A stretch of 64,000 nucleotides of DNA from Marsupella aquatica (GCA_973895155.1 OZ316896.1:3882738-3946737); one strand, 5' to 3'. Shown: positions 39,146 to 64,000, counted from the first letter of the stretch. The notes: generated by a model from the letters alone, not told the origin. A program made the numbers and translations.

Positions 39146-39697
39146 AGCTGAATGGGTTTCCGTCCGATACAGTCGACGAAGGCCACGGTGAACCAATACC
39201 CAGGAACAGTTGAAAGCAGAGCAATCAAAGCTAGCACAGGCAATTCTGTAGACTTCCTGCAGAGCGCTCAGACATGGACGTCGCAGCTGGAAGCCATCCC
39301 ACAGCAGTGAACAGATTTGACTGAAACAAGTTCTGGCTGTAGAAGGAGATGTCCAGCAGAAACCATGTCATACAAGTTCCGACCAACTGTCATCCGTGGC
39401 GTCGAGCGAATTTCCTGCTGAACAATTTGTAGTCCTTGACTTTGGTTGCTGTCACGGGCTCCGTAACCTCAGGACTAGTGTCGAATTGGGTGTGGAGAAC
39501 CCTCCCCATATCCTTGGCAGCTCGCTGCTGGTCCTTCTCCATCAAGGCAGTGTGGCGAGCAGTTTCTGGCATTTTCGATCGCGAGTAGTAGGTCAGGGCA
39601 GCCGGAACAGCTCCAAACATGAACATCAGCCTCCACACCCAGTCAGCTTGCCGAACAGTGGAGGCATTCCCCAGGATATGACCTCCCTTGGCTGACA
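39146..39697 (-). pseudogene. PHT1: Inverted internal PHT1 fragment, antisense to the intact gene
   Basis: Reverse complement matches 29212-29763 ([20 protein letters not shown]...KPIQL), with a TGA stop and small indels. Confidence 0.95.
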
Positions 39698-40451
39698 GAC
39701 CCTCCTTTTCACCAGGTTGTGAAGCTTGTGTCAAATTTGGCGAATCATCTGCAAGATTTATGGGATCTATCTAGTTTGTTCTAAGTAAGCAATGATGTCA
39801 AATCACGAAAGAAAGCTTGATGCATCTATCGATCAGTTCCAAGAGAATGTGCTTAATGTACAAGATCCAAAGAAAAGTAAGGACGAGTGGCCCAATTCTA
39901 TCAGTGCATTTGAAGTATTGTGACTAATTTGGAGGGTTCTTCTCCATTCAAGGGATTTGGATTTAATGAATTTATAATGGAGACAATTTTGGACTGGAGT
40001 CCATCGTCAGAGCAAAAAGCTGCCTTCCAGCTTGCTTATGTAAAACAAGTCACAAGTGCCCAAGAAATCTTGTAAGCCTGATTGTCAACTTGCTCCAAGG
40101 GGGTTATGGTCTAATGATGGTTTTTCCTTTGAATGTCATGGAACAATATTTTAATTCTAGGTCTTGGCGAGAGTTGAAAGTGAACCAGGGACAAATCTGG
40201 AGTAGAGTACATCCATGTCACACTTCACTACTTAGTTAGTACACTATTGTAGCTGTTGACCTTTAGTTCATGGCACTATTACACTAGAGTGGACACTAGC
40301 TTATGGTACCATTTTTGTGGTTGATCTTATTTATTTTATCCTTCTAGGTTTTTGGGTTGACATCATCTCCCCTCTTCATTTGAGGTCAAAATTTGTCCTC
40401 GCTAGACCCTCTTTTGCTTTTACTTTATTGTCCTTGTTTGGCCCTATTTAG

Positions 40452-42105: not shown

Positions 42106-42874
42106 TGTGACCCAGCATCGCACCAGCTAGCCCACGAGCTTTGAAGCTAGAGCTCAATAGGCCGTGTTGGACTGGATCTCAGTTACATTGAAGTGGAATC
42201 CGTCCTTCGGAACTTCTCTTTTCTGAATTCAGTAGAGATTCAAAGTTCTTTGGGCGAGGACACAGAGTGCTACGAAGTTTAAAGTTTGAGCAAATTCTGA
42301 GAGGTCACAAAGATGTCGCTCACGGGGGGAAATCCGGTGCTCAAGGCACTGGATAAGCGAAGACGCAGACGTATCATTTCAAGGCGATTGTGATCGCCGG
42401 TATGGGCTTTTTCACCGACGCTTACGATCTGTTCGTGATTTCCATCCTCACCAAGCTTCTCGGTCGTCTCTACTCTTTCGACCCTTCCACTCCCGAGGTA
42501 ATAGGGACTCTTCCCGTCAACGCAATGCCGCAGTGGTTGGTGTGGCGCTGTGCGGGACTCTTGCCGGTCAGCTCTTCTTCGGGGCGGAAGAAGATGTATG
42601 GAATTACATTGGCGCTCATGGTAATCGCTTCCCTCGGTCAAGGTCTGTCGATGGGGAGCTCCGCCACTGGCGTGCTAGCCACCCTCTGCTTCTTCCGATT
42701 CTGGCTCGGGTTCGGCATAGGCGGAGGTAATCCGTTGTCAGCCACAAAATTGAGTGAGTACTCCAACACGAAGACTCGAGGTGCCTTCGTTGCTTCTGTG
42801 TTCGCCATGCAGGGAGTTGGAATTCTCACAGGAGTTGCGATGTCCATGAGCGCTCTGTAGAGAGTCTACAGAAT
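42106..42874 (+). pseudogene. PHT1: PHT1 pseudogene (part of 5'UTR intron plus 5' CDS, frameshifted, ~490-bp internal deletion)
   Basis: Matches 28384-29140, then jumps to ~29628-29661. [13 protein letters not shown] has become [13 protein letters not shown]. Retained intron sequence indicates DNA-level duplication. Confidence 0.95.
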
Positions 42875-50559: not shown

Positions 50560-52188
50560 ACATATAATTACCTTTTTTTGCATCCCTATCAAGTATTACA
50601 AGAGCCTGTATTGCATACCACATTACACCTGACCAAGAAGATTTGGAGCAAAATCCATGGCCACACCCAAAGTGCAACCAGAGCACAACAGTATAGTTAG
50701 GGCTTGAACTTGAGACGTGTTCAGGTACTGTCCCAGTAATTGCACATCAAAAACTAACACCCAGATACATATTTAGAATAACACTCACTGATTCAAATAT
50801 AATTATTGAGTTTATCATGGTGTAGAGTGACAATCGTGGTACACAACATATTGTTACATTTTGATGTGAAATTACTTGGAGGCAGGGAAGAGGAAACGTT
50901 TCTCACAAATCACTCATGGCCACTTGACCTGACCACCAGGTCCCACTGAAGTGATTAGTGTTATGCATGCAACTACTGTAGCACCATCATAAGCAGGTGC
51001 CAAGTAGACACCAAAAAGTCAACATTGTTTTTCCCAAAGTCGAACCCCATAAGGCCGGGTCTAGTGTTGCATTAGCCCCACCACTTTAAGCAACTTCCCT
51101 TTTTATAATGCAAACATGTAATCTATGGTTTTATATTCAATTGACAATGTCAAAGCTTCATTTTAGTCTCGTAAACTTTTGTACCTATCAACTCATGGAA
51201 CCCAAATATATAGCTTAAAACTGAACCAAACTTGTTTTGATGTGGAACAACTTTATCAAAACCAAACAATATGGGTTACCATTCTAGTAATAAAACGGTC
51301 TACAACCAGCTATGGCCAGCCTTTCAGTATATTTATTAGAACGTTTTAAAATCATCTTTGAGTACAGGCCTACAGGGCTCCAACCGAGGCTGCAACCAAA
51401 CCAATCAGAATTTTATGATTTTATTAAAGTTAAGAAAAACCGTTTAACAAATATCCACGAGTTTTATGAAAAGGTTTTAAACTTGAGTGAAAAAAAGAGG
51501 AGAATCAAACTTTTTAGTGACTCAACACAGAAAAGTGGGAAGCAATTTTTAAAATTTTTTATCAGCCTATCTTATAGGTCATGTAAAACTGTAGACCCTT
51601 GGCTACTATACAAGAGTTGTGTACCCAAGAGCCCCACTCCAATGCTCCAAAGAGTATCAACAACCAACAATGAAGGCAGGCTGGAGTTATGGCCATTACA
51701 GTTATGGCCAGTACAAAATACGGGCACAAGCATTGGGAAGCCTGGACCGGAGTTGTGGGCAAGATAAGGAAAACCAAGTGAGGTAGGTATGGGTGGCAAG
51801 TCCCCAGAGGCACTTACAACGGAAGTACATAAGCGATTCAAAGCTAAGTTTTCTTACACCAAGTCACAAATGGAACAGTGTTAGGAGGTTGGTTGATTTC
51901 CATCTGATGCTAAGTGGTAGCAATTGCAAGGCTCTGTGTCTCACCTCTTAGGGAACCTGCCGCTCAGGTTGGATTGAAGTGCCACCAGCCACACTTGGAC
52001 CGATAGTTGGTTGTTGGGTGTAATACACGGGTTGAAACCAGTGACAATGGTAATTTTCTTATTCTTAACCTGTAGAGCTTCCTTATTACAGGCTCATCAT
52101 GGAACAAACTTTGTTATCTTGTCGTGTGGCAAACTAAAAGGGAGAAAAAAATTTAAAATTATTCCTAAAGGTGAGAATAGGAACTTAA

Positions 52189-53506: not shown

Positions 53507-55693
53507 TTTACGTGATGGGCCCTCACAATTTTTTTGTTACAAACTAGGCCCCTTCAGACACCCTTTTGTCAGATGTTCTTATAATAATTCTTATAAGGAG
53601 TTTTAGCTTGGTATTATCACCAATAAGAGTTACCATAAATTTTTGAGTCAAACAGTCTGTGCGGAATGACAAACTACACCATGGGGGAACCGCAGAGTAA
53701 TGGCGGACGTCACGTATATTGCAAGTTCCTAAGTACGTGAAGCTTGTGGGGTTAACTTAGTGTATATTTTGGGGTACCATGTGCGATCCTAGCCTAATAT
53801 AAACACACCTGTTTTATAACATGAATATTCTAAATCTATTCTCTATTTTCAATATTAATGACCTATTTTACTTTAGAAAAGATGTATATTAGAGAATGTT
53901 TTACAAATATGGGTTTATAATACATTTTTTTGCTTCCTACGCTTTTTACAAATTTTGTTAATTTCTATGAAATATACATATTTTGGATCGCACGTGATTC
54001 CTAAGATTTTTGATAGTCAACCTCCCAAGACGTGAAGACAATATGATTCATGTCTTCAGGTTTGAATTCTACCTTACCATCCATCTTTAGGTTGCTTCAT
54101 GATGCAACCTATGCACTGGGTTTGCATATTAAATGTTGACATGTTCTTTTGTCTAAAATAGTATGGAATGAATACTCTATTTTTGGTCGTTGGCCCCTAC
54201 TGTAACATTCAGAATTGTCCAAGTGTGGAAGGAACCAAGGATCTTTTACTTTTGGCGTCTTGCCCTTGTTGCACAACTTTCAAAAATTGTCAAAGTGTGA
54301 AACAAAGACAACATGGAGTCAATTGTACCGGAAATTTTTGCTAGCCTACAAGAACTAGACTAAATGTTGTACAAACCCGCTATCATGTAATGACGAATTC
54401 TCAAAAACTCTATATTCATGTGAAGACATAATACATTGATTATGTCTTCAAGCATAGACATACATGCGATACACTATGACATGGCGCGCTGTGGAGTTGG
54501 GTGGGAAATGTACTGTTGACCATGCAATTAGGCACCATATTATAATAAGAATCATGTGTACGGAACCTACATATGGGGCCTATTTTATAACAGAGGTTTT
54601 GTAGGGCCCATCACATCTCTACATCCAAAGCATAGTTGACTGCAAGTTCCATACACTAAAAGTTAAAATCACTTAGCCAAAATATGTCAAGTTTGGTCAT
54701 AATAAATGCAATACCCTGAATAGAAGCAGCCACTTGCTCCATTCCTTAGACAAAAAGCATGTATACATCAGCAAGAAAACTGACCCACAAGGGGCCCATT
54801 GACACATGATCGACTAGGTTTGGTAATGGATTTAATTGCCTGATTGTTACTTCATGTAAACTGAGGTCTGGCCTGTTCCAAGCCACATTTGAATGGCTAG
54901 GATTGCATCTCACACATAGAAAAAAATCAACTTACTGCAGCCCCAGTTCTTGTAAAGCCCCCCTGAATAAAGACCTTATTATTACTACTTAGCAACAGAG
55001 GTTCCCAATTATCACATTGGAGTGCACAGTGATCCTTGATCACCTTTGATTACACAGTTATTGTGATCTCTTTTACTTAGAGGGTTTTGAATGCTTCTAT
55101 ATGTTATGTCCATTACAAACTTGGTAGGGAGACACTTCTAAAAATGATTTAAGGGGGTTACTAGAAACTTGGATAAAAATTAAAAATAAAAACGTAGAAT
55201 GGGGGGAACCACATCTATTTCACATGGATTAAACTACAAAGAAAATATATGCATAGGATGAATCAGAAAGTAAACAAGGACAAATGAATTGACAAATGCT
55301 CTGAGTGAGCAGGTTAGATGCCTTGTCTATAAGGGGACATCTAATTTTCTTTTTCTCGGGGAATTGTGATTGTAGAGCTTCTTTATTAAAGCCCCGAGCA
55401 CAATAATGGCGACAACACAAGGACACTTTCCACAAAAGAACTTTGGAAATTCCAAAAATCACTAAATATTATTATTTTAATAAAAAGGGGGCGACATGAC
55501 GCGTGGCTGCGCGTGAAACCCTGAAAATGACTGCAACGTCACATTTTAACCAATCCAACTTGACGGGACAAAGAGACATGTTCATGCGAATAATAATAAT
55601 AATAATAATAGAGAAATAAATCTTTGAGATCCTTTATATATGATAACCAGTATATAAGGAGTTTACAAATGGTTTCTAGAACGACAATACAAA

Positions 55694-56422
55694 TTAATCT
55701 GATCTCATGCCGACTATTATTTTGGAAGTGTCCAAAATTGGGCGTCTGTTAAATTGCTCTACTAGATATCTATCTCCATGCCTCTGAATCACAGGGTCTT
55801 CCCATAGAGTATGATTATAATCATAATCTCTAAAAATAGATTTAACTGACCAATCTGGATAATCTCTTCCATTGGCAATGACAAGCGGCTCACAAGAGTT
55901 TGCTAGCTTGCTAAGATACGGAATCAGCAAGTTAATCAGGAAACTGTCGTCGACCGACCCAAAATATTTGGGCGGAAATAATGATCCAACAACAGGATCT
56001 AAACAAGCATGAAATGCATCGGATTCGATAAGCATTATATTTTGCTGCAGATACGCCTTCGTATAAATTCCAACCTTCTCAAAACACTTCAAAAATATCC
56101 GCTTATTTGATGTCACCCCATCGCATAAGTAACAATGAGACTGATCCCAAATATACTTAAATGAGGCCATTTCCATCGCAGTAAAAATAGATGCTAAAAT
56201 CTGATCTAAAAGGTTCTTCCCAAGAGAGGACCAGATCCCTACATCAAAATTCTCAAAACAGAATCTCAAGAATTCGTGAAGATGAGGCCTTGGAAAAATG
56301 TATATATTCCCAATCCAAATTCCAGTTGAGACCGCCATCAGTCGGGAATGCGGTGCAGTGTAACAGAGTAGATGCTCCACGTCTAAAACTATGAGCCCAT
56401 TTTCTCTACTGCAATGAATCTC
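55694..56422 (-). CDS. FCP1/NIF HAD-phosphatase-like domain 3 (terminal exon; degenerate active site)
   Basis: LIVLDVEHLL...PRPHLHEFLRFCFENFDVGIWSS...YIWDQSHC...FLK...NIMLIESD. Acceptor TCTACAG|56422. Confidence 0.8.
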   Translation of the reverse strand, partial: EIHCSRENGLIVLDVEHLLCYTAPHSRLMAVSTGIWIGNIYIFPRPHLHEFLRFCFENFDVGIWSSLGKNLLDQILASIFTAMEMASFKYIWDQSHCYLCDGVTSNKRIFLKCFEKVGIYTKAYLQQNIMLIESDAFHACLDPVVGSLFPPKYFGSVDDSFLINLLIPYLSKLANSCEPLVIANGRDYPDWSVKSIFRDYDYNHTLWEDPVIQRHGDRYLVEQFNRRPILDTSKIIVGMRSD

Positions 56423-56514
56423 CTGTAGACAAACACAAGAAGATGCATGAGCCCGTATGGATGTAGTCACGCGAATGGTCGCGTCACATATTACAGAGAA
56501 AACATCCTCTACAC

Positions 56515-57216
56515 TCTGGCCATTGATAAGTGACGTCTGTTGAAGTGCTTGATAAGAACTTGATCCGCATGTCTCTGCACGTACAGATGCTCCCATATAT
56601 CCTCGTTCAGATCCCAATCTCGATGTAGATTTCTAATCGACCAGATGGGATAATCAAACTTGTTAGCGAACGCAAGACAAAGCCCTGAATTTGATAGCTT
56701 TCGTAAATATGGAATGAGGTCATCCCTCAAAAAGACATCATCCAACGATCCTTGAAACGACTTAGCGAACAATAATCCGCATACAACTGTCTGGCATGTA
56801 TGGGAAGGACAGACATCAATCTGGATTATATTCTCTGGTCGATAATCTTGAAACATATCACATAGTCTCTCGATAGATTTGAAGACAACAGTCTTATAAT
56901 TTTTCTTCACATAACCAAGATTCCAGCAATGATCCCGCGTGAACACATATATCAACTGCGACAGGTCGGTGCTCGACAACACTTCTGAAAGTATCTGATA
57001 AACCAGTTTATCGTCGAGAACAGACCAGACCATCACATCAAAATGATCATAACAGAATTTTATAAGATCATGAAGATGCGGCCTCGGAATGACACATAGA
57101 GATCTGATACGAATTCCGGGTGCCGACTTGAGCTGAGGAGTATATTTTGAAATAGAGCACAGGAAGTTTTCCAGTCCTAAAACTAGAAGTTGACGCGACT
57201 TGCTCCACTTAGACAC
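56515..57216 (-). CDS. FCP1/NIF HAD-phosphatase-like domain 2 (exon; nucleophile Asp lost)
   Basis: LLVLGLENFL...PRPHLHDLIKFCYDHFDVMVWS...VFKSIERL...PENIIQID. Acceptor TTTACAG|57216. Confidence 0.8.
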
Positions 57217-57341
57217 CTGTAAATGAACAATTTGATTATCATATTATGCAATTGCAAACAACCACGCGACCGGGCGCGTCACTCCCAAAAGTTCAATTTC
57301 AATCAATTTATAAATAATAATTGATAATAAACAATAAACGT

Positions 57342-58247
57342 TTACTTATTGGACTTATCCCGGGCTTCTATAGCACGGTCTTTTTTGGCAGATAAGTATT
57401 TCATAAATTCGTCAAACTTTTCTAAATGGTCTTTATTCCCCTGATTACAAATGATCACGTTTCTCCTCCAAAGATTCGTCTTATCAATATAATCTTTCTC
57501 AAGATTTTCTTGAGAGAACGTTGGAATCCCATATCCACTAAGGAGCTCGCGGAATGTCAACTTGTCAATTGACATGTCGCATAGATATGGATATAGTTTC
57601 TTTCTAAAAAATAGGTCATCATCGAGCCCAGAATATGCATCGGGATACAGCGATGAATAGAAGTCATTAAGGCTCATCTTATATGCAGCATCATCGATAA
57701 GAATGACATTCTCGATGTTGTAATCTTTAATATCGGCGGCAATGTCCGAGAGACATTTGACAAATAAAGGGATGTCATTATTATTCTTCCCAATAAGTTG
57801 AGTTGATTCTTGTCCCCATATAAATTTAATACGTTTCAAAACTTCGGGTCGAAGTATCAGCCTTACACAAGATAGAATATTCCGTTTGAACATGCACGAC
57901 CAGATCGCAATGTCGTATAGATCTGCCACCTTCTCAAGAAATTCCATTAAATCAGGCCTTGGATAGATAACCTTGTGCATCTGTCTCACACCCCTTGACC
58001 GAATGGGCATCCCAGGGCTAATCTTCTCTGACCAGATAAGTACCCGATTCAGATCGAAAATTACAAGTCTCTTCTGAACCGGTGACTTCTTTGCCGATGG
58101 ATTAGGCACCATCCGTACCTGTGATTTTTGTGCCGCAGGGTTTGGAGAACGTACTAGAATGGTCTGTTTGTTTCCCGCCTCTGGACGATCACCGGACTTC
58201 CGGACTGGTGCCTTCGATACTCGATCAGGGGGTTTCGGGATAGGCTT
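57342..58247 (-). CDS. FCP1/NIF HAD-phosphatase-like domain 1 (exon)
   Basis: KRLVIFDLNRVL...PRPDLMEFLEKV..LYDIAIWSC...FIWGQE...ENVILIDDAAYK, the DLNx-type FCP1-homology subfamily pattern. Acceptor TTTTACAG|58247 is in frame with the 57342-58112 ORF. Confidence 0.85.
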   Translation of the reverse strand, partial: KPIPKPPDRVSKAPVRKSGDRPEAGNKQTILVRSPNPAAQKSQVRMVPNPSAKKSPVQKRLVIFDLNRVLIWSEKISPGMPIRSRGVRQMHKVIYPRPDLMEFLEKVADLYDIAIWSCMFKRNILSCVRLILRPEVLKRIKFIWGQESTQLIGKNNNDIPLFVKCLSDIAADIKDYNIENVILIDDAAYKMSLNDFYSSLYPDAYSGLDDDLFFRKKLYPYLCDMSIDKLTFRELLSGYGIPTFSQENLEKDYIDKTNLWRRNVIICNQGNKDHLEKFDEFMKYLSAKKDRAIEARDKSNK

Positions 58248-58333
58248 CTGTAAAACATTAAGAAATGAAAATAAGTTTATAACGCGAACGGTCGCGTGAC
58301 TACAAAGAGAGATACTGAAATGAAGTGTATTAC

Positions 58334-59122
58334 CTATACAAGACGGTTGTTTAGTGCTGGAATTCCGCCGGAAATGTCAATCATAGCAGCACGGATCCCG
58401 GTAACTAGGTTACTTGCGGACGTCGGCTTGCGGAAGTCCATGTCAAATAACGACAAGACTATCTCCCTACGGAATTTCTCAATTTGATCCGCGGCAAAAT
58501 TAATTCCGTTTCCTTGACACAAGCACTTGGCGTATCTCAAGATAAACACACCACAACTGTGGCCGTCACTCTGGTGAGGAATATCATTCCGATATATCCA
58601 TTCCCAACCTGAGAGATCCAAGTTGACACCAGTTCTCCAGCCAATTTCGTCGGCGTAGTACTTCCCAACAATATCTAGCACCCCAGGATTTTGTCGATTA
58701 TGAACTAGAGAATCTAGGTACTCCAGCCGTTTCTCCTTTGGATACAAGACTACCAATGACCAATGTTCTTTCACAGCATTGTGTACTGGAAAGACCAGTT
58801 TCTCGTATTCACTGATTTTTAGCGGAAACTCCTTTGTCCAAGCTGCTCTCTCCTCGTCGAAAATGGTAGGATCCATGGAGAGAAGCTCAAAATGGTGTGT
58901 TTGGAAGAATTTGACAAGGTCTGACTTTCCAACTCTATCGAGAATCAGTTCGAGAAAACTCAAATAAGCGTTAATTATATCATCGGTGAGCAACTCGCGC
59001 GGTCTCAGACACATCATATGTTTTCTCTTGATCGAGTGTTGTAAGAACTTGGTCAATAGCTCTTCCATATCCTTAGAAGGATCAAGGCATTGATCTATTC
59101 GACTAGCCAAATTTTCAAAAAA
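58334..59122 (-). CDS. Ulp1/SENP-like SUMO protease domain (peptidase C48), exon
   Basis: CLRPRELLTDDIINAYL, FPVHNAVKEHWSLVV, YLDSL, PHQSDGHSCGVFIL. The His-Asp-Cys triad and oxyanion Gln are intact. Confidence 0.92.
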   Translation of the reverse strand, partial: FFENLASRIDQCLDPSKDMEELLTKFLQHSIKRKHMMCLRPRELLTDDIINAYLSFLELILDRVGKSDLVKFFQTHHFELLSMDPTIFDEERAAWTKEFPLKISEYEKLVFPVHNAVKEHWSLVVLYPKEKRLEYLDSLVHNRQNPGVLDIVGKYYADEIGWRTGVNLDLSGWEWIYRNDIPHQSDGHSCGVFILRYAKCLCQGNGINFAADQIEKFRREIVLSLFDMDFRKPTSASNLVTGIRAAMIDISGGIPALNNRLV

Positions 59123-59257
59123 CTGCAAAAAAACAGAAATTTCAGAACGCCTTCAAATAACGTACTGAGGTTGTAGCCTAAGGGTTGTAGCCTCAGAAAA
59201 CAGAAACAATAACAGATCAATAATAAAATAATGACGTCTATAATAGAAACTTTAAGC

Positions 59258-61119
59258 TTATAGCTTGCGAATGACCTTTGGATTGGGTGGATCCGGCCTT
59301 TTCGCAGCTGATCTCTTGGGTGCCTCAATCGCAACAACATCCTTCAGCCCTCCTCGAGACCGCAGTGATCGCTCCACCGGACCAGTTTGCGAAGGTTGGA
59401 GCGATGAGGCGGGAAGACCTTCAAATGGTTGTGGCATTTGATTCAAATATTCCACAATCTGGGAATCCGATTCCAAAATATCCGGTGCCACAATTTCTGT
59501 GCGAGTCACCTCTACAATATATTGGGGTCGAGACCACGAACCCGATCGCGTCAAGTCAGCTGTTAGTCTCTTAACAACTTGAGCCGAGTCTGGTGCCAAA
59601 AACATTCCCAGGTCTTGCACTCGATTCTTGGAAAAGCGCACATTATTGATGATTGTCTCCATTCTGGATGCAGTGGCAGTCTTCTCCTCGGTAATCAAAA
59701 GACCCTTCCAATATTGCAAAGCAAGGAGTGCCTGGACTCGGAGCTGCTCCGGTGAATATTTATTCCAATCATCCAACGAGACCGTACTTAAGGGTGGATC
59801 GTTAAATTCAAACTCCGGGCGAAGAAAATAGTCTAATATTTTCTTCTTAACTGCAACTGAGGGTGAAGAAGGCTTCTTAAAATTCAGCCTTATTTTCGGT
59901 AGACGTTGTGCCTCAGGAATAAGCGAAAGATCCTTGGCCCTCTCGGCCTCCTTCCTCGCTGCCTCCAGTCTTGCGGCTTCTTCTCTCTCCAGTCTTGCGG
60001 AATCCACCTTTTCTGCCTCCAACTTCTCCGCCTCCACCCTCTCCGGTCTTGCGGTCTTGTCCGCCATCCTCTCGGCCAGAAGCCTCTCAGCCGCCTCACT
60101 CTCCGCCTTGGCCCTATTTTTGTCTGTCACTAAAAGGACTCTCGCAGCCTCCGCTTTCTCAGCCTAGGCTTTCTCCGCCTGGGCTTTCTCAGCCTGGGCT
60201 TTCTCCGCCTGGGCTTTCTCAGCCTGGGCTTTCTTGGCATCCGCTTTCTCAGCCTGGGCTTTCTCGGCCTCCGCTTTCTCAGCCTGGGCTTTCTCGGCCT
60301 CCGCTTTCTCAGCCTGGGCTTTATCAGCCTGGGCTTTCTCAGCCTGGGCTTTCTCAGCCTGGGCTTTCTCAGCCTGGGCTTTCTCAGCCTGGGCTTTCTC
60401 GGCCTCCGCTTTCTCAGCCTGGGCTTTATCAGCCTGGGCTTTCTCAGCCTGGGCTTTATCAGCCTGGGCTTTCTCAGCCTGGGCTTTCTCGGCATCCGCT
60501 TTCTCCGCCTGGGCTTTCTCCTTCTTCTTCGCGGCAGTTGCTTTTCTAGCTGTTGCCTTTTTCTTCTTAACCTCCTTCTTTTGAAGCTGCTCTTGCCGGG
60601 CCGCCTCTTGTCGGGCCGCCTCCTCCTGCCGGGCCGCCTCCTTCTTTTGAAGCTCCTCTTGCCGGGCCGCCTCCTGCCGGGCCGCTTCCTTCTTTTGAAG
60701 CTCCTCTTGCCGGGCCTCCTCCAGCCTGGCCTCCTCCTGCCGGGCCGCCTCGTGCCGGGCCTCCTCTTGCCAGGCCTCCTCCTGCCGGGCCGCCTCCTCT
60801 CTGGCCTCCTCCTTCCGGGCCGCCTCCTCTTGGTCCACCTCATGTCGAGGCTCCTGTGTGGCCTCTTCATCAGAGTCCTCAGCGTCCTCGGAACCCTCCA
60901 TCTCCTCGTCCTCTTCATCAGCGTCCTCAGCGTCCTTCATCTCCTCTCCGTCACTCTCTTCATCTCCTCTATTGTCGGAATCTCCGACGTCGTTCTGCGT
61001 ATCTGTCATCCACTCTGGATCTTGGTCATTGACATCCCCATCCATGTCACCTTCCCCCTCACCATCCGCATCACCATTGCTCCCTGCATCCTCAACATTG
61101 AAACCGCAGTCGACTTGAT
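59258..61119 (-). CDS. Exon with acidic tract, EEAARQ and AEKAQ helical repeats and an unknown domain; one premature TAG at 60164-60166
   Basis: Acceptor TATTCAG|61119 is phase-compatible with donor at 61238. ORFs 60164-61045 and 59258-60130 share a frame and are separated only by GCC-TAG-GCT where the repeat has GCC-CAG-GCT. Confidence 0.75.
60150..60830 (-). repeat. Coding minisatellites: 15-bp AEKAQ array (~60150-60520) and 15/18-bp EEAARQ array (~60590-60830)
   Basis: Plus strand (GCTTTCTCAGCCTGG)n and (GCCGGGCCGCCTCCT)n-like units. Confidence 0.95.
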
Positions 61120-61237
61120 CTGAATAAAATCAGATCATTTGATAAGAATGACTCACGCGTGAAAAGAAATGTTATGAATATCCACGCACATGTTCGCGTG
61201 ACGCAATAAGAAGTAAGAGGTTTCAAAAGTAACTTAC

Positions 61238-61559
61238 CTTGGATTGGCCCACTAGGGTACTCTGTTGGTCGAATATACAATCGATCGAAATCTTCAGAGA
61301 GTGCATACTCTTGCAATAATTGATTACAAATATTATCAGGGATATGTTGTTCATGGAGGACATCCAAAACATCAGCCCTGAGAGCAGTTACGGATGGACG
61401 GTACTTCATTAATTTATCTATATATTTTTCTATACTAGCCCGTACTGGGTCAATCAATGACAGCGTTGTATCAATTGTCGTCGTGGTGTGTTGCAAGAAA
61501 CAAGACAACTCCCTATGCGTTGCCACAGGGCAGTAATATTTTACATTGGATCCAGCATC
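61238..61559 (-). CDS. Internal exon of the giant gene
   Basis: Acceptor TTTTACAG|61559, donor CAAG|GTAAGT at 61238. Translates DAGSNVKYYCPVATHRELSCF...GPIQ. Confidence 0.75.
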
Positions 61560-61659
61560 CTGTAAAAAAAGCCGAAATTAGTTCACAATATTAATTGAGA
61601 ATATAATAATCTAAATAATCTTAAAATCGAAACCCCAAAATATAAATCTCAAAACTTAC

Positions 61660-62962
61660 CATTAAGCACTGGATCAAGTTCGTTCCCTCACCGAAGCATA
61701 TAGCCCATTCCCCACATTAGACGAATTGACTAACAATACTTTCAAAGAATGGAAGTATCTTTTCTGGGGAAGGTGTCATGAACTCGTCGCTCTCTTCAAA
61801 ATTGGATATTTTTTCAATCTGATATTTGGAGACCAATTGGAACTCTAGGGCTTGTGGATCGCTCATTGTACTGAAGGCCAAGCTGTGAAAAGCGTAGGTT
61901 ACAATAAGCTTCTTCTCCTTCGGCCTCTTCTAAATATAATGGCTATCGACAGCAACGTAGTGTGTGTACTTCCCTAATTCCCGTTTGATTAAGTAAGACT
62001 CAACGGGAGAGGCTACAATAATAACCACATGGTGTGGTTTTGCCCCTATCTCGCTAGTAGCACGAAATAACCCCTCAGAATGAGCAATTTGGCGGACGCA
62101 AATCTCCCATTGATGAGGGATCAAAATAAATCAAGCTCGCAAGGTTCTTGTCTTCACGTATGATACAGTCTGCAAACCCAGCATTTTGTATATCCTGCAG
62201 GGATCGCAATTTCAGCCTCTCACCGACCGGCCGCACTAGTTGGTTTCCTTGACTATCAACTGATTTCTGTATTCCTTCCACCAACCTGTAGAATATAGGG
62301 TCGATCTCCTTCAACAAATTATCATTACTAATATTTACATTTAAGCACTTCTTCAGATAACCACTCAACGCATCTCTCAACTGCTTCAGCACCATCTTGT
62401 CGAGCTTAAAGCGATCAATCATTCCTTTGACCCGCAATTTCCGCGCTGAATCTGTCAGACTTTTCAGCTCCGTCCGGGTGGATGTTTCCCCATTGAGTTT
62501 ACTCAATAATAAAATCTCAAACTCAACTTTCATCTTCTTCTTTATACAGAATTGCTCCAAACTCATGCTGGTCGTTGACAACACTCGAGCCTCAGAGGAC
62601 TTCCTCGCCTTCCCAGATTTCACTTTGATGCTTTGGTTTTTGAGTATAGACAGTCTTCCGCTCAACATATATTCCGCTGCCTTTCGAAGAACCGAGTCTG
62701 AGCACCCTTGACAAGAACGGAACGTCTTCTTTAGAAGATGATAAGCACATGGATTATCCGCAATTTTGACGGTGTCCCTCTGTAAAATTCTGTTGTAAAT
62801 TACAAGCTCTCCTGTCCTTGATAGTTCATAGACCTCCATCCACTTCTTGAATGTTTCGTCCTCCATTGTAAAGAGAAACGGAGCCAATTCTCCAAATTTC
62901 ATCATTTCGTTCTTCCCCATTTGAGCCCATGGGCAGACAAAACTCGTAGCTCTCATAAATAC
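61660..62962 (-). pseudogene. Exon with a helical region plus a degenerate beta-class N4/N6 DNA-methyltransferase-like domain (1 frameshift, 2 stops)
   Basis: Acceptor TTTTTCAG|62962, donor ATG|GTAAGT at 61660. LASLIYFDP(frameshift)HQW...EKILPFFESIVSQFV*CGEWAICFGEGTNLIQCLM follows the motif IV ... X-I order of permuted amino-MTases. Confidence 0.5.
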
Positions 62963-63061
62963 CTGAAAAACAATGGAAACATGACAATTCTAAGCTTGAC
63001 GCGACCATTCGCGTGACAAAAGTTTATACGATAATGTGATCGAAGAGGGTTATTTATATAC

Positions 63062-64000
63062 CTTCCAATTTGGATGACGATAATGTGATCCAGGCCACCC
63101 AAATGAGTTCCAGATATTACGACACTGTCGTACAATGGTGAGAAACTGTCCTTCTTCCATTGATGTTTGATGACAGTGGTTCAAAGCTTTTGATAATCCC
63201 ATCAAATGAACATTATTGTCGTTGTTGAGCGTTGCCCAAAACATTATAGCTTCTACAGTACCGCAAGCGTCTCGTACAACTTGGCTGACTTTGTCGTCCT
63301 CTCTCAGCAATTTGTACGCCATTATTGTGTGCTGGCCTTCGAGTATCCAGAAATGACTGGTCATAATGTCCTCCTCCTTTGGCGATGAATCGTAGGGCAT
63401 CCCATTGTAGTCGGGATCTCTGTCGGCCTCCGACTGAACCCACTTCACAGGGACTAAAAAGCAGCATTGCTTCTCGAACTTTATAGCCGAATGAGAGAGG
63501 AGTGAATTCTTTAGCCTATCTGTGTAATCCTGATTCCACTCTCGGCACTTGATGTGGTCCGGTGCAAGATGACAACGTGATGTCTCAACAAAAAATGACT
63601 TGCTGTTAAATATATTCACAGCACTATATTCTTTGAGGAAAGAATCAAACAGAGCCCCGACATTCGCTGAGGTAATTACTTTCGGAAGATTCTCCGCCGA
63701 GTATATTTCAACCTTGCTCACTGGCGGGGCCTTTCCCAAGCAAAATCCCTGGTTGAAAGGAACTCTCTGGAACTCAAGTACGTCAATAATGTATTGACAA
63801 ATCAAATCTCCCGTTGATGCCTCTGGATCGGAAGGATATCCCACACTAGTAACCTTTTCCAAGGCGTGCCTTGCACCTAGAAGATCATCGATTATGGGTT
63901 GATTGAAGGTTACATATTGCGTTCGATCCAAACAAATGCTTATTTTGTCTTCCTGCTGGTCGTCGCTGACTAGCAGAACCAATCCCTCTGTACACTCTTT
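63062..64000 (-). CDS. Exon with ParB/Srx (DGQHR-like) domain; frame is open beyond the window end
   Basis: CREWNQDYTDRLKNSL...CCFLVPV...HFWILEGQHTIMAYKLL fits the ParB-N pattern R....L..S...hhV...hhDG.H.h.Ah..L. Donor TGGAAG|GTATAT at 63062 is in phase with the next exon. Confidence 0.6.

What the first reader, a model, noticed from the sequence alone, without database searches (positions are those of the whole stretch)
55499..63017. Same CpG-rich interrupted palindrome (ACGCG-N6-CGCGT) in nearly every intron of the ParB-like gene
Seen: 55499 ACGCG-TGGCTG-CGCGT; 56469 ACGCG-AATGGT-CGCGT; 57264 ACGCG-ACCGGG-CGCGT; 58282 ACGCG-AACGGT-CGCGT; 61184 ACGCA-CATGTT-CGCGT; 62999 ACGCG-ACCATT-CGCGT; plus TCACGCGTGA at 61153. 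Spacing is always 6 nt and copies occur in both orientations. The 56466-56486 and 62997-63017 copies are an identical 21-mer (TGACGCGACCATTCGCGTGAC) inverted. They sit in 5 of 7 otherwise unrelated AT-rich introns and ~180 bp past the stop; I saw none in the remaining 55 kb. Known: bacterial parS sites are 16-bp palindromes bound by ParB dimers, and VANDAL elements accumulate VANC-binding motifs in their own non-coding DNA to escape methylation. Inference: these are self-recognition sites for a dimeric element-encoded protein, spaced every ~1-3 kb along the element.
Basis: partly seen in the sequence, partly recalled or inferred. Interest (0 to 1): 0.88.

Follow-up and report, generated by a model that had tools for sequence, protein, structure and literature searches.

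The report
Plant transposon's private intronic palindrome tags
A repeated mobile element in a land plant (likely a liverwort or other bryophyte) keeps one short palindrome in most introns of its ParB-like gene, and distant relatives of that gene each keep a different palindrome in or upstream of it, so the palindromes are likely self-recognition sites read by the element's own protein, an idea already proposed but untested for algal transposons.

Summary
There are five exact ACGCG-N6-CGCGT sites and one with one mismatch, all at 55.5-63.0 kb and none elsewhere (shuffle mean 0.14). The 61153 palindrome is a 10-nt deletion remnant of a seventh full site that most sister copies keep. All seven are non-coding. 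They lie in a multicopy element with a defined end near 55438; its gene encodes a ParB/Srx-like domain, a possibly degenerate methylase-like part, a Ulp1 SUMO protease and three NIF pseudo-phosphatases.

The best evidence is comparative. Two distant families (21-25% identity) carry their own different palindromes, two or three copies in the homologous introns plus upstream arrays. A third, AT-rich family has yet another palindrome, upstream only.

Best reading: family-specific binding sites for the ParB-like protein (about 0.65), likely used to keep cognate copies active. Binding, fold, dimer and anti-silencing effect are not shown, and this copy itself was CG/CHG-methylated.

The design was proposed for red and brown algal transposons in 2025. 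This is a new variant: land plant, intronic sites, sites that differ by family, Ulp1/NIF cargo.

The parts
55438..64000 (-). Part of a multicopy mobile element; one end near 55438, the other beyond the window. This copy lacks about 21 terminal bases present in sister copies, whose end begins AACCCC.
   Evidence: Depth about 28 in the flank versus 749-852 inside (X1); loose ends share about 21 nt and then diverge
55499..55514 (.). Site 7, ACGCG-TGGCTG-CGCGT, 3' non-coding, about 60 nt inside this copy's end
56469..56484 (.). Site 6, in the gap before NIF3
57264..57279 (.). Site 5, in the gap before NIF2
58282..58297 (.). Site 4, in intron 5 before NIF1
61153..61162 (.). Site 3, collapsed in this copy by a 10-nt deletion; full in most sister copies
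   Evidence: table 4
61184..61199 (.). Site 2 (one mismatch), intron 3
62999..63014 (.). Site 1, intron 1; a joint spanning it suggests tandem duplication in some sister copies
   Evidence: table 5 (63020 back to 62986)
63062..64000 (-). Exon 1 (5' part outside the window): ParB/Srx-like domain with FWILEGQHT motif
   Evidence: fold not confirmed
61660..62962 (-). Exon 2: helical region (candidate DNA-binding part) then a possibly degenerate amino-methylase-like region; frameshift near 62076 and two in-frame stops in this copy
   Evidence: methylase likeness by eye only (no hit)
61238..61559 (-). Exon 3
   Evidence: homologous start in L026 and L027 by eye
59276..61119 (-). Exon 4: acidic stretch, 15-nt repeats coding an E/A/K/Q-rich linker; stop at 60164-60166 in this copy
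58340..59122 (-). Exon 5: Ulp1/SENP SUMO protease; catalytic His, Asp and Cys align with SENP2
   Evidence: PF02902 E=9.8e-19
57342..58247 (-). NIF/FCP1-like module 1, ends in its own stop
   Evidence: PF03031 E=3.1e-11
56509..57216 (-). NIF-like module 2
   Evidence: PF03031 E=2.9e-11
55694..56422 (-). NIF-like module 3, last stop at 55694
   Evidence: PF03031 E=3.1e-14; 36% identical to module 2

Best explanation
The seven palindromes sit in non-coding DNA of a multicopy element and are likely binding sites for the element's own ParB-like protein, which would bring its SUMO-protease and phosphatase-like domains onto cognate copies and likely keep them active against host silencing. Shown: the sites, their non-coding placement, their retention in sister copies, and a different private palindrome in each of three related families. 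Inferred: a dimer of the N-terminal ParB/Srx-like plus helical region reads the two 10-11-bp half-sites; binding acts in trans on all copies of the same family; the sites sit in introns because exons cannot carry them; and protein and site diverge together, so each family marks only itself. Most speculative: spreading from the sites as a ParB-like clamp, and deSUMOylation of silencing chromatin as the output.
For: Seven of seven sites are non-coding although non-coding DNA is 12% of the element part seen. L026 (25% identity in the ParB-like exon) has 13 exact copies of TTGGGTCG-N2-CGACCCAA, 13 of 13 non-coding: 9 upstream and 2 in each of introns 1 and 2. L027-L031 (20-22%) have 10, 11, 3, 2 and 3 copies of TACGAACG-N2-CGTTCGTA; in L027, 9 of 10 are clearly non-coding. 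These introns fall at the same codon positions as the window's introns 1 and 2. The six loci L026-L031 carry no site of another family. In intron 1 of L027, L029 and L030 the sites are kept (2, 3, 2 copies) while the rest of the intron is barely alike. A fourth, AT-rich family has CTAGC-N4-GCTAG upstream in 4 of 10 loci (5, 4, 1, 2 copies; shuffle means up to 0.1; motif picked after looking). Sister copies keep site 3, some appear to duplicate site 1, and old copies show the terminal site decayed at its CpGs. The same pairing is proposed for Bostrychia PAG3 and Ectocarpus Sola1-1. ParB dimers bind short palindromes.
Against: There are no binding data. The ParB assignment is weak: no Pfam, NCBIfam or PDB hit, PHROG ParB-like E=0.24, Atlas DUF3723 0.94 and ParB_N 0.91 with a low recognition score, and models at pLDDT 35. 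The motif is GQH[T/S], without the arginine of the ParB CTP site (recalled). In the AT-rich family, intron 1 of 3 loci inspected has no palindrome, and 6 of its 10 loci show no site at all, though these hold little upstream DNA. This copy has been methylated: 15 of its 19 listed C-to-T changes are at CG or CHG against 37.5% expected (P=3e-4; only the 40 best-supported of 897 rows were visible). Introns 2 and 4 of the window gene have no site.
Confidence: 0.62

Rival explanations
1. The sites are read by the element's transposase or a transposase-derived regulator encoded beyond the window, as for Spm TnpA or AtMu1, and the ParB-like gene is only a neighbour.
For: One site lies about 80 nt from the full element end. 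Transposases can be sequence-specific activators of cognate copies (abstract). The other end and any transposase are outside the window.
Against: Sites cluster upstream of and inside the ParB-like gene in four families, not at the one end seen here. The shared design follows this gene across 21-25% identity, and the literature places such genes in several transposon superfamilies.
Confidence: 0.2
2. The sites are REP-like hairpins or recombination sites, cut by an HUH nuclease or tyrosine recombinase, that copy themselves or shuffle the exon modules.
For: The core with the same spacing occurs in GTAG-preceded repeats in 7 of 25 viral loci (the REP label is recalled). Two of seven window sites are preceded by GTAG. 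Two sites are identical over 21 nt in opposite orientation. Sites flank the Ulp1 and NIF modules.
Against: None of the 15 joints shown (of 101) joins two sites. No tblastn link between the window exons and the 25 viral loci. Related families use other sequences with 2-nt spacers at the same introns. No such enzyme is seen.
Confidence: 0.07
3. The sites bind host transcription factors (CGCG-box or CACGCG readers such as CAMTA or FAR1; recalled) that the element uses for expression.
For: The arms contain CGCG and CACGCG.
Against: The fixed 6-nt spacer and absence from the other 55 kb, including a host transporter gene with high CpG. Each related family has an unrelated sequence at the same introns.
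Confidence: 0.06
4. The palindromes act as RNA hairpins that help splicing of short introns.
For: They lie 42-55 nt (one 72) from the acceptor and can form 5-6-bp stems.
Against: Five of six regions fold no better than shuffles (z from -0.9 to +1.1; one at -2.0). Stems are sequence-invariant. In relatives most copies lie upstream of the start codon in arrays. A site lies past the last stop.
Confidence: 0.05

Closest known systems
PAG3 accessory gene of red-algal Plavaka (EnSpm/CACTA) transposons (bioRxiv 10.1101/2025.02.11.637652, section 8 read)
   Same: Transposon accessory gene with an N-terminal ParB-like domain, inverted repeats next to it, proposed to bind and modify its own element; untested there too.
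   Different: PAG3 has a putative 2OG oxygenase and tandem arrays adjacent to the gene. Here single or paired sites are spread through introns, the cargo is Ulp1 plus three NIF modules, and the host is a land plant. Sequence homology to PAG3 was not tested, and the preprint's supplements could not be seen.
ParB-like plus N4/N6-methylase accessory gene of Sola1-1_Ec32 in Ectocarpus (PMC12477816; passages; supplement rows)
   Same: ParB-like domain followed by a methylase-type region (here by eye only). The element end starts AACC, as in Sola1-1_Ec32 (AACCG), whose best transposase match is a Physcomitrella Sola1.
   Different: The methylase-like part here lacks recognisable catalytic motifs and has no profile hit. 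The passage read mentions no palindromes. Sola1 membership here rests on four terminal letters.
VANDAL/VANC anti-silencing (PMC5735166; passages)
   Same: Family-specific motifs in introns and other non-coding parts, gain by tandem duplication, specificity that differs between families.
   Different: VANC motifs are 8-9-nt non-palindromic words in dense same-orientation arrays of Mutator-like elements. Here 16-22-nt palindromes occur one or two per intron, and no VANC likeness was found.
Bacterial ParB-parS (bioRxiv 10.1101/2021.05.05.442810; passages)
   Same: Short palindromes in several copies beside a gene for a ParB/Srx-like protein.
   Different: No ParA seen. The motif is of the DGQH type shared with DUF6551, GmrSD_N and DndB proteins rather than the classic ParB CTP patch (recalled). 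A segregation role is implausible for a chromosomal transposon.

Membership tests
ParB-like transposon accessory genes (PAG3 / Sola1-1_Ec32 type) | Carried by a DNA transposon | tested here: inconclusive
   Multicopy with one sharp end and varied flanks; transposase, second end and target duplication lie outside the window.
ParB-like transposon accessory genes (PAG3 / Sola1-1_Ec32 type) | N-terminal ParB-like domain | tested here: inconclusive
   Atlas 0.94 and 0.91, PHROG E=0.24, conserved GQH motif in 15 of 15 rows, motif-only match to a DUF6551 protein; no HMM or fold confirmation.
ParB-like transposon accessory genes (PAG3 / Sola1-1_Ec32 type) | Inverted repeats associated with the gene | tested here: met
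   Window; L026-L031; 4 of 10 AT-rich loci.
ParB-like transposon accessory genes (PAG3 / Sola1-1_Ec32 type) | Nucleic-acid-modifying domain (2OG oxygenase or N4/N6 methylase) | tested here: inconclusive
   No profile hit for either; a degenerate methylase-like layout by eye in exon 2 and its homologs.
ParB-like transposon accessory genes (PAG3 / Sola1-1_Ec32 type) | Sequence homology to the published algal proteins | not testable with these tools
   The FASTA supplements could not be read; bioRxiv supplements are closed.
Sola1 DNA transposons | Terminal motif like Sola1-1_Ec32 (AACCG) | tested here: inconclusive
   Sister copies end in AACCCC against AACCG in one published family; four letters, one comparison.
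Sola1 DNA transposons | Sola1 transposase, TIRs, 4-bp target duplication | not testable with these tools
   The other end is beyond 64000 and no genome is held.
VANDAL/VANC | Short non-palindromic motif in dense same-orientation tandem arrays | tested here: not met
   Palindromic, 1-2 per intron.
VANDAL/VANC | Motif confined to non-coding parts of the cognate family | tested here: met
   (window and loci only, not genome-wide)
VANDAL/VANC | Protein-induced hypomethylation of cognate copies | not testable with these tools
   No methylome; this dead copy shows CG/CHG mutation.
ParABS | ParB CTP-binding arginine patch, HTH and C-terminal dimerisation domain | tested here: not met
   GQH[T/S] in all 15 rows where ParB has GxxR (recalled); no HTH profile hit.
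ParABS | ParA ATPase partner | tested here: inconclusive
   None among the ORFs scanned; the element is incomplete.

The most novel reading that the evidence does not exclude
A eukaryote-wide class of transposon proteins uses a ParB-type load-and-spread clamp with a fast-evolving, family-private palindromic address to deliver interchangeable chromatin effectors to its own copies. Here the effectors are a SUMO protease and three pseudo-phosphatase modules that may serve as alternative last exons. It would be a second, independent sequence-specific anti-silencing system beside VANC, reaching land plants, with natural cognate and non-cognate protein-site pairs ready for testing.
Probability: 0.3. 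Interest if true: 0.85.

Novelty: new variant of a known kind. Interest (0 to 1): 0.62.

Why it matters
The Bostrychia preprint calls VANDAL the only transposon known to bind and modify its own sequence, and offers ParB-like accessory proteins as untested candidates. This locus and its relatives supply what a test needs: four families of one gene, each with its own 14-22-bp palindrome, three of them at homologous introns. A cognate versus non-cognate binding matrix is therefore direct. The finding also extends the design to a land plant and adds deSUMOylation as a candidate output. If binding is confirmed, it would show how a selfish element tells self from host and from sister families.

Tried and rejected
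No host genome was held, so no genome-wide motif count could be made. No RNA holder was listed, so the splice model rests on phase and homologs only.

Word-based homolog searches for longer proteins found nothing for exon 1 or NIF2. The near-length search found one relative. The viral scan with exon 1, the first metagenome scan and the exact 21-mer in viral contigs were empty. tblastn against phages gave only E=7 hits. The Atlas gave no usable hit for exon 2.

Both AlphaFold models had pLDDT about 35 and Foldseek found nothing at E up to 0.001. The homodimer job gave no answer. The methylase-like reading got no profile support. Rfam gave one chance-level hit. The terminal motif of sister copies does not recur in the window.

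A Starship link through DUF3723 (search listing only) was not pursued, because no recombinase is seen. A link to Marchantia 4mC methylases (passages) is unsupported. The single bacterial and giant-virus hits match only the motif used to find them, so they are weak.

Literature searches that found no land-plant description: 0 papers; algal papers only among the relevant ones; one review table. Bao et al. 2009 on Sola was not held; Iyer et al. 2011 was not read.
Full report
1. Observation. Only a 6-nt spacer occurs. The inverted 21-mer identity is real. Nothing with up to one mismatch lies in the first 55.4 kb. Contigs of public runs laid on the region show that most sister copies have 10 more bases at 61155, which make TCACGCGTGA a full seventh site (679 of 729, 434 of 434 and 15 of 15 of depth in X1, X2 and X5). 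All seven lie in non-coding DNA, which is 1039 of 8563 bases of the element part.

2. The element. From about 55438 to the window end the DNA is repeated. In X1 a unique flank contig has depth 28 against 749-852 for element contigs; in X2 19 against 434-476; in X3 29 against 1324-1955. The tool warns that depth is not copy number, so I say only tens of copies. Sister copies run about 21 nt further, begin AACCCC and then have unrelated flanks, which marks a true end that this copy has lost. The window copy is dead: a frameshift near 62076 and stops at 61930, 61717 and 60164. Of the 40 difference rows shown (897 exist), 37 lie in the element and 32 have the other letter in the majority. Of these, 19 are C-to-T in this copy and 15 of the 19 are at CG or CHG, against 37.5% expected (P=3e-4), so this copy was methylated in the plant manner. 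Older copies show the terminal site decayed at its CpGs (loose ends of 2 contigs in X1 and 1 in X3). One contig each in X1 and X2 has a joint from 63020 back to 62986, which spans site 1 and suggests its tandem duplication. The host is a land plant by inference, likely a bryophyte: 2 of 10 relatives looked up carry a name, and both are from the liverwort Calypogeia fissa.

3. The gene (minus strand). Six of seven gaps have phase-matched GT-AG pairs. The spliced Calypogeia protein P0029 runs across intron 1 and the frameshift (31% identity over 283 aa, E=1e-42). Exon 1 has 32 relatives at E up to 0.001, with a conserved FWIxxGQH[T/S] motif. The ParB/Srx label is plausible but weak (negative). 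Exon 2 ends in a region that by eye has the layout of a degenerate beta-class amino-methylase, clearer in L026; no profile confirms it. Then come an acidic and repetitive linker, a Ulp1 domain whose catalytic His, Asp and Cys align with SENP2, and three NIF modules, 21-36% identical, none with the DxDxT motif (motif recalled). Each NIF module ends in its own stop, all three acceptors are phase 0, and the NIF1-NIF2 gap does not splice in frame with its best sites, so they may be alternative last exons.

4. Relatives carry their own palindromes. A metagenome scan with a 10-sequence alignment gave 16 loci out of 167 candidate stretches, in three well separated groups. L026 (25% identity to exon 1) has 13 exact copies of TTGGGTCG-N2-CGACCCAA: nine upstream of the start codon, two in intron 1 and two in intron 2, none in exons that make up 59% of the contig. 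L027-L031 (20-22%; L027 and L028 overlap, L029 and L031 are 98% alike) have 10, 11, 3, 2 and 3 copies of TACGAACG-N2-CGTTCGTA. In L027 five are upstream, two in each intron, and one (4229) lies in an open frame just before a possible acceptor. Introns 1 and 2 fall at the same codons as in the window. These six loci hold no site of another family, and the window holds one 3-mismatch match to each foreign motif. Intron 1 of L027, L029 and L030 keeps 2, 3 and 2 sites while the remaining sequence scores only slightly above shuffles (7, 4 and 2 of 200). The ten AT-rich loci L032-L041 differ: intron 1 has no palindrome in the three inspected, but CTAGC-N4-GCTAG occurs upstream in 4 of 10 (5, 4, 1, 2 copies; motif chosen after inspection). 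L038 has three NIF-like modules downstream and its near-duplicate L040 shows two by tblastn, the same cargo as the window. Aligned on their centres, the window and L027 sites share ACG at the same offset, and all are 14-22-bp dyads with a free centre.

5. Mechanism. A dyad with invariant arms and a free spacer, kept only where coding allows, private to each family and tied to one gene across 75-80% protein divergence, is what a dimeric element-encoded DNA-binding protein would select. Host factors or RNA stems would not change sequence from family to family, and folding is unremarkable. The ParB-like protein is the natural reader, since ParB dimers bind palindromes and spread, but a transposase outside the window is not excluded. 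The cargo suggests the output: a SUMO protease brought to chromatin would oppose SUMO-dependent silencing (inference from general knowledge), and the pseudo-phosphatases may be binding modules. The CpG-rich arms could make binding sensitive to methylation. None of this is shown, and the methylation scars on this copy show that protection is at best conditional on an active protein. The same core occurs in GTAG-preceded repeats in 7 of 25 viral loci, which I treat as convergence because no gene links them.

6. What is known. Petroll et al. (bioRxiv 10.1101/2025.02.11.637652; passages and section 8) describe PAG3, ParB-like plus a 2OG oxygenase, with adjacent arrays of inverted repeats in red-algal Plavaka elements and propose self-binding. 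Dinatale et al. (PMC12477816; passages, searched rows of one supplement and part of another) describe a ParB-like plus methylase gene in Sola1-1_Ec32, with AACCG termini. A review table lists Sola1 in Physcomitrella (PMC9033089; passages). Hosaka et al. (PMC5735166; passages) define VANC motifs. Two 2026 preprints were seen as abstracts only; PMC4738411, PMC12344493 and the Marchantia 4mC preprint as passages. My searches found no land-plant or Ulp1/NIF version, but subscription papers, Repbase and the Bostrychia supplements were out of reach and may bear on novelty. Seven earlier notes of this scan report the same design in other genomes; they are unchecked leads and lower the novelty.

7. 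Verdict. The feature is real and selected. It works like the proposed ParB-accessory self-recognition of algal transposons and, in logic, like VANC; membership in either or in Sola1 is not established. New variant of a known (proposed) kind; interest 0.62, mainly because the family-private sites at homologous introns make the open hypothesis directly testable.

Noticed in passing
window:55694-58247: The three NIF modules each end in a stop and all have phase-0 acceptors; the Ulp1 and NIF2 donors (GTATAG, GTGTAG) are followed at once by an in-frame stop. Possible alternative last exons.
   Followed up: partly
L038:572-8227 and L040: An AT-rich (30% GC) relative also couples the ParB-like gene with NIF modules (three in L038), with tandem duplications of about 1.5 kb; host unknown.
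   Followed up: partly
L018:735-3733; also L004, L010, L012, L015, L017, L025: Viral contigs with up to 11 copies of a GTAG-preceded palindrome sharing the ACGCG-N6-CGCGT core, resembling bacterial REP repeats (label recalled).
   Followed up: partly
window:5942-11185 (+): A 1747-codon stop-free frame with no Pfam hit.
   Followed up: partly
window:28578-30296, 39321-39770, 42279-42860: An intronless MFS transporter gene (Sugar_tr, MFS_1; looks like a PHT1 phosphate transporter, recalled) and two degraded partial duplicates seen in ORF translations.
   Followed up: no
window:54000-54950: Other high-copy repeats with many divergent copies just outside the element end.
   Followed up: no
window:52181-52556 and 50731-50880: Inverted-repeat pairs of 29-32 nt (86-88% complementary), MITE-like.
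   Followed up: no
window:59536-59551 and 57191-57197: A 2-mismatch site inside exon 4 and a lone TGACGCG half-site at the start of the NIF2 exon; could be chance or weak sites.
   Followed up: no
window:59166-59197: Intron 4, which lacks the site, holds a short direct repeat flanked by a 6-nt inverted repeat (read).
   Followed up: no
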